From a virus, in IMG/VR virus record IMGVR_UViG_3300029319_000003, positions 120,188 to 184,187 of that record: a stretch of 64,000 bases of DNA; one strand, written 5' to 3'. The notes under the pieces were generated by a model. It was not told the DNA's origin and ran no database searches. It worked only from the letters and a program-made list of their open reading frames with translations. Both the position numbers and the translations under genes were made by a program. Shown here piece by piece: positions 26,771 to 26,868 of the stretch (position 1 is the first letter of the stretch; the number at the start of each line of letters is the position of its first letter).

Positions 26771-26868
26771 TGGCTGGAGGGGGAGGATTCGAACCTCCAA
26801 GGTGCGCTTTCACGAACTCACCACCGTCGAGACAGGACGGCGCGTCTGCCAAATTTCGCCACCCCCCA
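26771..26868 (-). tRNA. Atypical 98-nt type-II tRNA with GUC anticodon and U37 (Ser/Leu-like body)
   Basis: TGGGGGG/CCCTCCA acceptor, G73, CCA; D-arm GCGAAATTTGGCAGACGC; CCGTC-CTGTCTC-GACGG; 22-nt variable arm GGTGAGTTCGTGAAAGCGCACC; GGAGG-TTCGAAT-CCTCC. Confidence 0.85.

What the first reader, a model, noticed from the sequence alone, without database searches (positions are those of the whole stretch)
26771..26868. 98-nt tRNA with Ser/Leu-type body, Asp anticodon (GUC) and a pyrimidine at position 37
Seen: complete cloverleaf with CCA, G73, type-II D-arm, a 22-nt variable arm (GGTG/CACC, 4-nt bulge, CGT-GAAA-GCG) and loop CU-GUC-UC. Known: canonical tRNA-Asp has a short variable loop; position 37 is almost always a purine; SerRS recognises G73 plus the long arm and ignores the anticodon. 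Inference: it may be serylated and misread Asp codons, act as a non-ribosomal aminoacyl donor, or serve as a decoy for host anticodon nucleases or tRNA-sensing defences.
Basis: partly seen in the sequence, partly recalled or inferred. Interest (0 to 1): 0.75.

Follow-up and report, generated by a model that had tools for sequence, protein, structure and literature searches.

The report
Phage tRNA-like carrier, Asp anticodon, Asn body
This marine phage gene encodes a real, strongly conserved 98-base tRNA that joins the aspartate anticodon signals to an asparagine-type acceptor end and a leucine-type long-armed body. It belongs to a large family I could not find in the literature, one that probably carries aspartate to be turned into asparagine rather than reading codons normally.

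Summary
Window 26771-26868 (minus strand) is a 98-nt cloverleaf with U1-A72, G73, encoded CCA, a Leu-type D arm, a 22-nt variable arm and the loop CUGUCUC (GUC, U37, C38).

It is not a decayed gene. An anticodon-blind scan found 73 distinct close relatives in marine metagenomes. In all of them U33, G34, U35, U37 and C38 are invariant, and only position 36 varies (U 61, C 11, G 1). Stems covary.

The wider family has over 150 distinct sequences. It also lives in bacterial chromosomes, mainly Sphingobacteriales. There it occurred only in genomes with the amidotransferase gene gatB (79 with, 0 without), although those genomes already have AsnRS and GlnRS.

The RNA combines:
- the published AspRS identity set (G73, G34, U35, C36, C38);
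- the GatCAB determinant U1-A72;
- the tRNA-Asn-type T stem (G49-C65, A51-U63), which weakens EF-Tu binding of Asp-tRNA;
- a pyrimidine at 37, almost never seen in decoding tRNAs.

My best reading (about 0.4) is that it is aspartylated, amidated to Asn, and largely kept off the ribosome. Serylation is not supported, because the variable-arm geometry and D arm are Leu-like.

The scan has met this family before on other DNA. I found no paper describing it.

The parts
26771..26868 (-). Whole 98-nt class-II-bodied tRNA(GUC), including the encoded CCA (26771-26773) and G73 (26774)
   Evidence: ARAGORN; sequence; consensus fold with covariation
26862..26868 (-). Acceptor stem 5' strand (UGGGGGG). 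It pairs with 26775-26781 (CCCUCCA). The first pair is U1-A72.
   Evidence: U1-A72 plus G73 occur in 89 of 97 distinct viral family members. U1-A72 is the bacterial GatCAB determinant (PMC1635274).
26842..26859 (-). Leu-type D arm: 3-bp stem GCG/CGC and 12-nt loop AAAUUUGGCAGA
   Evidence: The same arm sequence pattern retrieves mostly tRNA-Leu genes. D-stem pair 2 covaries, UA or CG.
26824..26840 (-). Anticodon arm: stem CCGUC/GACGG and loop CUGUCUC. The anticodon GUC lies at 26831-26833, U37 at 26830 and C38 at 26829.
   Evidence: In 73 distinct subclade relatives found without constraining the loop, U33, G34, U35, U37 and C38 are invariant and N36 is U 61, C 11, G 1.
26801..26822 (-). 22-nt variable arm (GGUG / 4-nt bulge / 3 bp / GAAA / CACC), flanked by U44 (26823) and UU (26799-26800)
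   Evidence: Arm length in the family runs from 7 to 61 nt. The geometry is 1 unpaired base 5' and 2 unpaired 3', as in tRNA-Leu.
26782..26798 (-). T arm GGAGG-UUCGAAU-CCUCC, with G49-C65 and A51-U63
   Evidence: G49-C65 occurs in 96% and A51-U63 in 91% of 159 family sequences, and the two together in 67 of 70 subclade sequences. This is the tRNA-Asn-type combination that lowers EF-Tu affinity of Asp-tRNA (PMC1904265).
26687..26761 (-). Canonical 75-nt tRNA-Asn(GUU), 9 nt downstream on the same strand; a frequent partner of this family
   Evidence: A canonical tRNA-Asn lies nearby in 6 of 13 GUC loci and 33 of 86 GUU loci of the subclade. A canonical tRNA-Asp lies nearby in 0 of 99.

Best explanation
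The gene makes a tRNA-shaped RNA that enters the indirect asparagine pathway as a cofactor rather than serving as a normal decoder.

Shown here:
- It is a conserved member of a large family with a Leu-type class II body, U1-A72, G73, a YUGUYUC loop and an Asn-type T stem.
- In bacteria the family tracks the presence of GatCAB.

Inferred from published identity rules:
- The host's AspRS, especially a non-discriminating one, aspartylates it through G73, G34, U35, C36 (or U36) and C38.
- The Asp-charged form binds EF-Tu poorly because of G49-C65 and A51-U63.
- GatCAB accepts it through U1-A72 and converts Asp to Asn on the RNA.

Inferred more weakly:
- The pyrimidine at 37, and the enlarged variable arm in other members, keep the product from decoding GAY codons efficiently.
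- The RNA therefore acts as a carrier for making or holding asparagine, which the phage brings next to its ordinary tRNA-Asn to raise asparagine supply during infection.

The fate of the Asn-RNA is unknown.
For: 1. Real and selected. Fifteen of 27 pairs show compensatory changes. Seventy-three distinct subclade relatives have an invariant U33-G34-U35-N-U37-C38.

2. Only N36 toggles. L581 (GUC) and L554 (GUU) share the same variable arm. This is what an enzyme indifferent to C36 or U36 would allow, namely ND-AspRS (PMC9976931). A decoder would change meaning with that switch.

3. All five strong AspRS determinants listed in PMC9976931 are present: G73, G34, U35, C36 and C38.

4. U1-A72 is near-universal in the family. 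It promotes amidation by bacterial GatCAB, whereas bacterial tRNA-Asp keeps G1-C72 (PMC1635274; PMC9976931). Canonical tRNA-Asp genes in the same loci have G1 in 22 of 26.

5. The T stem is of the Asn type, not the Asp type. In experiments this combination lowers EF-Tu binding of Asp-tRNA about tenfold (PMC1904265).

6. Position 37 is a purine in 906 of 919 class I tRNAs and 245 of 245 Leu/Ser/Tyr tRNAs from the same loci. It is a pyrimidine in 147 of 159 family members.

7. In 101 Sphingobacteriales genomes the RNA was found in 79, all of them gatB-positive. It was found in 0 of 15 gatB-negative genomes (Fisher 6e-13, not corrected for phylogeny). Ninety-nine of the 101 have glnS and 99 have asnS, so GatCAB has no obvious translational job there.

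8. An Lrp/AsnC-family regulator lies within 600 nt in 67 of 80 chromosomal loci.

9. The phage and its relatives often carry a canonical tRNA-Asn beside the RNA, so the class II copy is not simply the phage's Asn or Asp decoder.
Against: - No charging, amidation or expression data exist.
- The phage's host is unknown, so whether it has GatCAB or an ND-AspRS is unknown. The phage encodes no GatB, amidase or class IIb synthetase.
- The GatCAB association was measured on the giant-armed chromosomal class, mostly related Sphingobacteriales, and not on the phage subclade.
- The closest cellular relative, L474, has no AsnC-type neighbour.
- All five RNA-bearing genomes tested also have AsnB-type asparagine synthetase genes, so the RNA is not obviously needed to make asparagine.
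- GatB also reads the D loop, and an extra D-loop base blocks amidation. The large Leu-type D loop might therefore be rejected.
- Class II synthetases approach from the variable-arm side, so the long arm could hinder AspRS. This point is from my own knowledge and was not tested.
- This member's arm (22 nt) is no larger than those of normal Ser and Leu tRNAs, so nothing physically bars it from the ribosome.
- Asp makes up 6.8% of phage residues, so a decoding tRNA-Asp would be useful.
Confidence: 0.42

Rival explanations
1. It is simply the phage's decoding tRNA-Asp. It is charged with Asp by AspRS and reads GAU and GAC. The class II body, U1-A72 and U37 are tolerated quirks inherited from a class II tRNA-Asn-like ancestor through a U36-to-C anticodon shift.
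For: - The full AspRS identity set is present.
- CCA is encoded, and the gene sits in a tRNA operon with five ordinary tRNAs.
- No canonical tRNA-Asp lies in the phage or in 99 related loci.
- Asp is 6.8% of phage residues.
- The variable arm is of normal class II size.
- Twelve of 73 GUU-class members keep a canonical CUGUUAA loop.
Against: Three independent features depart from bacterial tRNA-Asp norms, and all three are conserved:
- U1-A72 instead of G1-C72.
- G49-C65 and A51-U63 instead of a U-containing 49-65 pair with G-C at 51-63.
- A pyrimidine at 37.

In a GatCAB-bearing host, Asp on this RNA would be amidated and would then misread Asp codons. Position 36 switches between near-identical sequences without any other change.
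Confidence: 0.22
2. It is a nuclease-resistant substitute or a decoy. The altered loop (U37) and the extra arm either let it escape host anticodon nucleases that attack GUN-anticodon tRNAs, or let it soak them up. The same could apply to other tRNA-sensing defences.
For: - Phage tRNAs are proposed to evade anticodon nucleases, colicin E5 among those named, through loop mutations (PMC10264068).
- The invariant U33-G34-U35 with variable N36 of U, C or G matches the element shared by the GUN tRNAs. That this is what colicin E5 and tRNA-guanine transglycosylase read is from my own knowledge.
- The RNA sits beside a canonical tRNA-Asn.
Against: - The same family is maintained in bacterial chromosomes, often in tandem and next to an amino-acid-responsive regulator, and tracks GatCAB. 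That points to a housekeeping role.
- The decoy idea does not explain the invariant C38, U1-A72, G73 and the Asn-type T stem.
- The phage has no TGT gene.
Confidence: 0.12
3. It is a deliberate recoder. After aspartylation and amidation, Asn-RNA(GUC) binds EF-Tu well and inserts Asn at some Asp codons.
For: - It has the same identity logic as the best explanation.
- The Asn-type T stem is suited to carrying Asn to EF-Tu.
- The arm is of normal size.
Against: - Widespread Asp-to-Asn substitution would damage phage proteins too.
- U37 should weaken decoding.
- GUU and GUC versions interchange freely.
Confidence: 0.07
4. One reading: SerRS charges it through G73 and the long arm, so that Ser is inserted at Asp codons.
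For: - It has a long variable arm and G73.
- G73 blocks LeuRS and TyrRS in E. coli (PMC9976931).
- Allo-tRNAs with non-Ser anticodons, GUC among the commonest, are thought to be Ser acceptors (PMC5389517).
Against: - The variable-arm geometry and D arm are Leu-type, not Ser-type.
- The acceptor/T configuration is 7/5, not 8/4 or 9/3.
- An anticodon-blind enzyme would not hold G34, U35 and C38 invariant.
Confidence: 0.04

Closest known systems
Bacterial tRNA-Asn as cofactor of the indirect pathway (non-discriminating AspRS plus GatCAB, the transamidosome). This includes organisms that keep the pathway only to make asparagine although they have AsnRS (PMC1635274, PMC1904265, PMC4206432).
   Same: U1-A72, G73, G34-U35, and a G49-C65 / A51-U63 T stem. 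Most subclade relatives carry GUU. The chromosomal family occurs only in GatB-positive genomes that already have AsnRS and GlnRS.
   Different: A class II (Leu-type) body with a long variable arm; a pyrimidine instead of A/t6A at 37; C38. This member and the whole chromosomal class carry the Asp anticodon GUC, so the product would not match its codon.
Canonical bacterial tRNA-Asp(GUC)
   Same: The anticodon loop differs from the E. coli-type CUGUCAC only at position 37. G73, C38, G10 and G2-C71 are present.
   Different: U1-A72 instead of the strictly conserved G1-C72; an Asn-type T stem; a class II body; U37.
Bacterial tRNA-Leu (class II)
   Same: The D arm sequence and the variable-arm geometry (1 unpaired base 5', 2 unpaired 3').
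   Different: G73 instead of A73, U1-A72, a GUY anticodon, and different acceptor and T arms.
Allo-tRNAs (Mukai et al. 2017, PMC5389517)
   Same: A long variable arm with non-Ser/Leu/Tyr anticodons. GUC and UAU are among their commonest anticodons, and this phage has long-armed GUC and UAU tRNAs. They occur in bacteria and phages and may be non-decoding.
   Different: Allo-tRNAs are defined by 8/4 or 9/3 acceptor/T configurations and a Sec-like D arm. This RNA is 7/5 with a Leu-like D arm.
Non-proteinogenic tRNA-Gly of staphylococci (cell-wall donors kept away from EF-Tu)
   Same: The principle of a tRNA that is charged normally but tuned in its T stem to stay out of translation.
   Different: A different amino acid, a class I body, and no amidation step. 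The resemblance is in logic only and rests on my own knowledge plus the mention in PMC1904265.

Membership tests
Uncatalogued class-II-bodied tRNA(GUY) family (phage and bacterial) | Leu-type D arm (GUGGYGRAA..GGYANACRY) with a 3-bp stem | tested here: met
Uncatalogued class-II-bodied tRNA(GUY) family (phage and bacterial) | U1-A72 and G73 | tested here: met
   89 of 97 distinct viral members
Uncatalogued class-II-bodied tRNA(GUY) family (phage and bacterial) | Loop Y-U-G-U-Y with a pyrimidine at 37, and C38 in the GUC class and in this subclade | tested here: met
   the anticodon-blind searches are
Uncatalogued class-II-bodied tRNA(GUY) family (phage and bacterial) | G49-C65 and A51-U63 in the T stem | tested here: met
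Canonical bacterial tRNA-Asp | AspRS determinants G73, G34, U35, C36, C38 | tested here: met
   against PMC9976931
Canonical bacterial tRNA-Asp | G1-C72 (strictly conserved in bacterial tRNA-Asp) | tested here: not met
   It has U1-A72. Controls have G1 in 22 of 26.
Canonical bacterial tRNA-Asp | Short variable loop (class I) and a purine at 37 | tested here: not met
   22-nt arm and U37; purine at 37 in 906 of 919 control tRNAs
Canonical bacterial tRNA-Asp | EF-Tu-strong T stem (U in the 49-65 pair, G-C or C-G at 51-63) | tested here: not met
   It has G49-C65 and A51-U63. Twenty of 26 control tRNA-Asp have the Asp-type pairs. The rule comes from PMC1904265.
tRNA-Asn of the transamidation pathway | U1-A72, G73 and the Asn-type T stem | tested here: met
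tRNA-Asn of the transamidation pathway | Anticodon GUU | tested here: not met
   It has GUC. Sixty-one of 73 subclade relatives have GUU.
tRNA-Asn of the transamidation pathway | A D loop acceptable to the GatB tail (no supernumerary base) | not testable with these tools
   The D loop is Leu-type and 12 nt long. Its effect on GatCAB is unknown.
tRNA-Ser (SerRS substrate) | Long variable arm and G73 | tested here: met
tRNA-Ser (SerRS substrate) | Ser-type variable-arm orientation and D arm | tested here: not met
   The geometry is 1/2, as in Leu. The Ser mode is 1/1. The D arm pattern retrieves tRNA-Leu.
tRNA-Leu | A73 discriminator | tested here: not met
   It has G73. G73 acts against LeuRS in E. 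coli tRNA-Ser.
Allo-tRNA | 8/4 or 9/3 acceptor/T configuration | tested here: not met
   It is 7/5. The possible extra pairs with the 5' flank are not conserved in relatives.

The most novel reading that the evidence does not exclude
A dedicated, largely non-decoding tRNA-like carrier shared by bacteria and their phages, on which AspRS loads aspartate and GatCAB makes asparagine. This would be tRNA-dependent amino acid synthesis uncoupled from translation. Phages would carry their own copy to boost asparagine supply, and position 36 would be free to drift between Asn and Asp anticodons because nothing reads it as a codon partner.
Probability: 0.4. Interest if true: 0.85.

Novelty: new variant of a known kind. 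Interest (0 to 1): 0.72.

Why it matters
If the reading is right, it adds a new kind of player to the oldest route of asparagine formation: a tRNA look-alike that keeps the marks read by AspRS, GatCAB and EF-Tu but has given up decoding.

It would explain why many Bacteroidota keep GatCAB although they have AsnRS and GlnRS.

It would also show that marine phages import part of an amino acid supply route as an RNA gene.

Practically, the family is missed or mislabelled by standard tools. Rfam's tRNA model misses this gene at its gathering score and the chromosomal copies I checked, though it does call the closest cellular relative, L474. ARAGORN calls the gene tRNA-Asp or tRNA-Asn. Phage tRNA censuses and codon-compensation analyses therefore count these genes wrongly.

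Even if the RNA decodes, a conserved pyrimidine at 37 on an Asn-bodied GUC tRNA would be a natural test case for identity and fidelity rules.

Tried and rejected
Searches that led nowhere:
- Relatives through the adjacent DnaJ-like gene: none found.
- An exact anticodon-arm search in viral contigs gave only two chance matches, neither a tRNA.
- An exact T-arm-plus-acceptor search found nothing.
- blastn of two family members against about 50,000 isolate phage genomes found no homologue.
- Rfam has no family for the chromosomal copies, even at permissive E-values.
- The strict D-arm-plus-anticodon pattern found nothing in a sample of 150 Bacteroidota genomes at phylum level, so the association test was done at order level with a looser pattern.
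- The promoter and terminator scan gave only weak matches and was not used.

Readings rejected:
- Pseudogene: rejected on conservation and covariation.
- Allo-tRNA or tRNA-Sec relative: rejected because the configuration is 7/5 and the D arm is Leu-like.
- An extended 9-bp acceptor stem using the 5' flank: rejected because it is not conserved.
- A second anticodon-like hairpin in the variable arm, as in the neighbouring tRNA-Ile: rejected because the loop is GAAA.
- Partnership with the phage mini class IIb synthetase seen beside the GUU class: rejected for this phage, since neither the Pfam model, a member protein, nor an HMM of 68 members finds one here.

Limits of the retrieval:
- The pattern forced YUGUY, so anticodon statistics come only from the anticodon-blind searches.
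- My parser required full acceptor pairing, so pairing percentages for the acceptor and T stems hold by construction. Only their pair-type diversity counts as evidence.

Full report
**What is there**

The window is part of a 184,187-bp IMG/VR virus record rated complete. Earlier notes of this scan call it a marine T4-like phage.

On the minus strand it has a cluster of six tRNA genes and a tmRNA.
- U1-A72, seven acceptor pairs, U8 G9;
- a 3-bp D stem with a 12-nt loop;
- anticodon stem CCGUC/GACGG and loop CUGUCUC;
- a 22-nt variable arm, T loop UUCGAAU, G73 and an encoded CCA.

Rfam's tRNA model misses it at the gathering score, and its best weak hit is tRNA-Sec. Its folding energy alone is unremarkable. 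A canonical 75-nt tRNA-Asn(GUU) lies 9 nt downstream.

**It is conserved, not decayed**

A first set of relatives came from loci sharing a neighbouring cytidylyltransferase gene and from D-arm and T-arm patterns. It gave 97 distinct tRNAs, 73 GUU and 24 GUC, of which 89 had U1-A72 and G73.

Because that pattern fixed the anticodon, I ran an anticodon-blind scan for the gene's own subclade, using only the acceptor 5' strand and the D arm, in metagenome and viral contigs. It gave 73 distinct sequences from apparently marine samples. Their loops were:

| Loop | Distinct sequences |
|---|---|
| CUGUUUC | 43 |
| UUGUUUC | 18 |
| CUGUCUC | 10 |
| UUGUCUC | 1 |
| CUGUGUC | 1 |

So U33, G34, U35, U37 and C38 never vary and only position 36 does. 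L581 has the same gene order as this phage. L581 (GUC) and L554 (GUU) share the same variable arm, so the switch is a single base.

An 11-sequence alignment folds into the same cloverleaf, with compensatory changes at 15 of 27 pairs. Across 159 family sequences the unconstrained anticodon stem pairs in 99-100% of cases at four of five positions, with 4-5 pair types each.

**The family reaches into bacteria**

Most hits are a GUC class with loop UUGUCUC and 35-60-nt variable arms. It occurs in Pedobacter and other Sphingobacteriales, and in some Bacteroidaceae MAGs, often as two tandem copies.

ARAGORN and Rfam do not call these copies.

The closest cellular relative of the phage gene is L474, with 90% identity outside the variable arm, the same acceptor and T arms, and GUC. 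It sits in an ordinary chromosomal context of a high-GC MAG. On average the phage gene is nearer to the GUC class (0.80) than to the main viral GUU class (0.72). No isolate phage in the INPHARED collection has a blastn-detectable copy.

**What kind of tRNA it is**

The body is Leu-type. The D-arm pattern retrieves mainly tRNA-Leu. The variable arm has one unpaired base 5' and two 3' in 58 of 70 family members. That is the tRNA-Leu mode (102 of 137), not the tRNA-Ser mode of 1/1.

G73 excludes Leu identity; the review PMC9976931 lists G73 as acting against LeuRS and TyrRS.

The loop and discriminator carry all five strong aspartate determinants from the same review: G73, G34, U35, C36 and C38.

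The ends are of the asparagine type:
- U1-A72 is the element that promotes amidation by bacterial GatCAB, while G1-C72 and an extra D-loop base block it (PMC1635274; PMC2811023).
- G49-C65 with A51-U63 is the tRNA-Asn combination that lowers EF-Tu affinity of Asp-tRNA about tenfold. tRNA-Asp uses G49-U65 with G51-C63 (PMC1904265).

Controls from the same loci agree:

| Set | First base | T-stem pairs | Position 37 |
|---|---|---|---|
| 26 canonical tRNA-Asp | G1 in 22 | Asp-type in 20 | purine in 21 |
| 52 canonical tRNA-Asn | U1 in 46 | G49-C65 with A51-U63 most common (17) | purine in 51 |
| 159 family sequences | U1 in all 159 by selection (89 of 97 in the unfiltered viral set) | G49-C65 in 96%, A51-U63 in 91% | pyrimidine in 147 |
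| 70 subclade sequences | U1 (fixed by the search pattern) | both Asn-type pairs in 67 | U in all |

Across all control tRNAs, position 37 is a purine in 906 of 919 class I tRNAs and in all 245 Leu/Ser/Tyr tRNAs.

**Link to GatCAB**

Earlier notes of this scan suggested that the chromosomal family goes with GatCAB and an asnC-like neighbour. I tested both.

- All five RNA-bearing genomes checked have GatB, four have asnS, one has asnA, and all have AsnB-type genes.
- In a sample of 101 Sphingobacteriales genomes, a looser pattern found the RNA in 79, with none in reversed-pattern controls. GatB was present in 86.
- All 79 RNA-positive genomes are GatB-positive, and none of the 15 GatB-negative genomes has the RNA (Fisher 6e-13). 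This is not corrected for shared ancestry.
- The same sample has glnS in 99 and asnS in 99, so GatCAB is not needed there to charge tRNA-Gln or tRNA-Asn.
- An Lrp/AsnC-family regulator lies within 600 nt of the RNA in 67 of 80 chromosomal loci, mostly Pedobacter.

**The phage context**

The phage has no class IIb synthetase core, AsnA, AsnB, GatB, amidase or TGT gene.

This matters because the main viral GUU class is different. In 83 of 95 such loci a 276-301-aa PF00152-only protein, lacking the anticodon-binding domain, lies 0-25 nt upstream on the same strand. It has only weak similarity to aspartate-tRNA(Asn) ligase and archaeal-type asparagine synthetase A. The subclade of this gene lacks that partner and must rely on host enzymes.

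In the subclade a canonical tRNA-Asn is nearby in 6 of 13 GUC loci and 33 of 86 GUU loci. A canonical tRNA-Asp is never nearby. Asp makes up 6.8% of phage residues.

**Most likely mechanism**

The conserved set is G73, G34, U35, C38, U1-A72 and the Asn-type T stem, with a free choice of U or C at 36. That is the set an RNA would need in order to be:
1. aspartylated by a non-discriminating AspRS;
2. ignored by EF-Tu while it carries Asp;
3. amidated by GatCAB.

A faithful tRNA-Asp should have the opposite acceptor and T-stem features. A decoder should not switch between Asn and Asp anticodons with no other change. A pyrimidine at 37 is almost unknown in decoders.

I therefore favour a carrier that is charged with Asp, converted to Asn and mostly kept out of translation (about 0.4). 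What happens to the Asn is unknown. The steps from sequence to enzyme behaviour are inference from published identity rules.

**Weak points**
- The host is unknown.
- The large D loop may be rejected by GatB.
- Carrier genomes also have AsnB-type genes.
- This member's variable arm is of normal size.
- The GatCAB association was measured on the chromosomal class, not on the phage subclade.

**Rivals**
- Plain decoding tRNA-Asp: 0.22.
- Nuclease-resistant tRNA or decoy, following the idea of PMC10264068: 0.12.
- Asn-inserting recoder: 0.07.
- Ser-charged mistranslator: 0.04.

**Novelty**

Six literature searches found no description of a class-II-bodied tRNA with GUY anticodon, U1-A72 and a pyrimidine at 37. 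Nor did they find a dedicated RNA for GatCAB. The nearest published objects are allo-tRNAs, which differ in their defining 8/4 or 9/3 architecture.

This scan has met the family before on other genomes. The present case adds three things: the short-armed phage subclade, the anticodon-blind conservation pattern, and the Asn-type T-stem observation.

Noticed in passing
window 27455-27549 (minus strand): A second long-armed tRNA in the same cluster: a 95-nt tRNA-Ile(UAU) with a variable-arm hairpin. UAU and GUC are also the commonest allo-tRNA anticodons (PMC5389517).
   Followed up: no
L386:426-1331 and 82 other viral loci (e.g. L209, L344): A 276-301-aa class IIb synthetase core without an anticodon-binding domain sits 0-25 nt upstream of the class II tRNA(GUU) in 83 of 95 viral loci. 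It is very diverged: there is no PDB sequence hit, and only weak NCBIfam hits to aspartate-tRNA(Asn) ligase and asparagine synthetase A. It is absent from this phage.
   Followed up: partly
L439, L479, L503, L532, L417, L469, L435, L440, L456, L490, L528 (bacterial MAG contigs): Leu-bodied tRNAs with G1-C72, discriminator A73 and a canonical tRNA-Asp loop (CUGUCAC and similar, anticodon GUC). They occur in Planctomycetota, Gemmatimonadota, Dehalococcoidia and other MAGs. This is a different kind of chimera, which LeuRS might charge.
   Followed up: no
L423:5416-5562; L330, L349, L373, L412, L194, L200, L202, L207: Family members whose variable arm holds a large insert with the conserved motif GGGUUGACCAC. 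In Pedobacter this is the second copy of a tandem pair.
   Followed up: no
L593:52-147: One subclade member has the same body and U37 C38 but the loop CUGUGUC (GUG, the His anticodon).
   Followed up: no
L181, L203, L224, L229, L233, L265, L287: About 100-nt tRNA-like genes with A73-CCA, an irregular anticodon region and a variable arm containing GGGCUAGGCUAUA. They turned up in the T-arm scan, and ARAGORN mostly fails on them.
   Followed up: no
window 27825-28159 (minus strand): A phage-encoded tmRNA (tag ANNNTHFDAVALAA) at the head of the tRNA cluster. Relatives carry similar ANNNNHFE-type tags.
   Followed up: no
window 23318-24670 (minus strand): A PIN-PhoH fusion protein 2 kb from the tRNA cluster. 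It also recurs near family members in 8 other loci.
   Followed up: no
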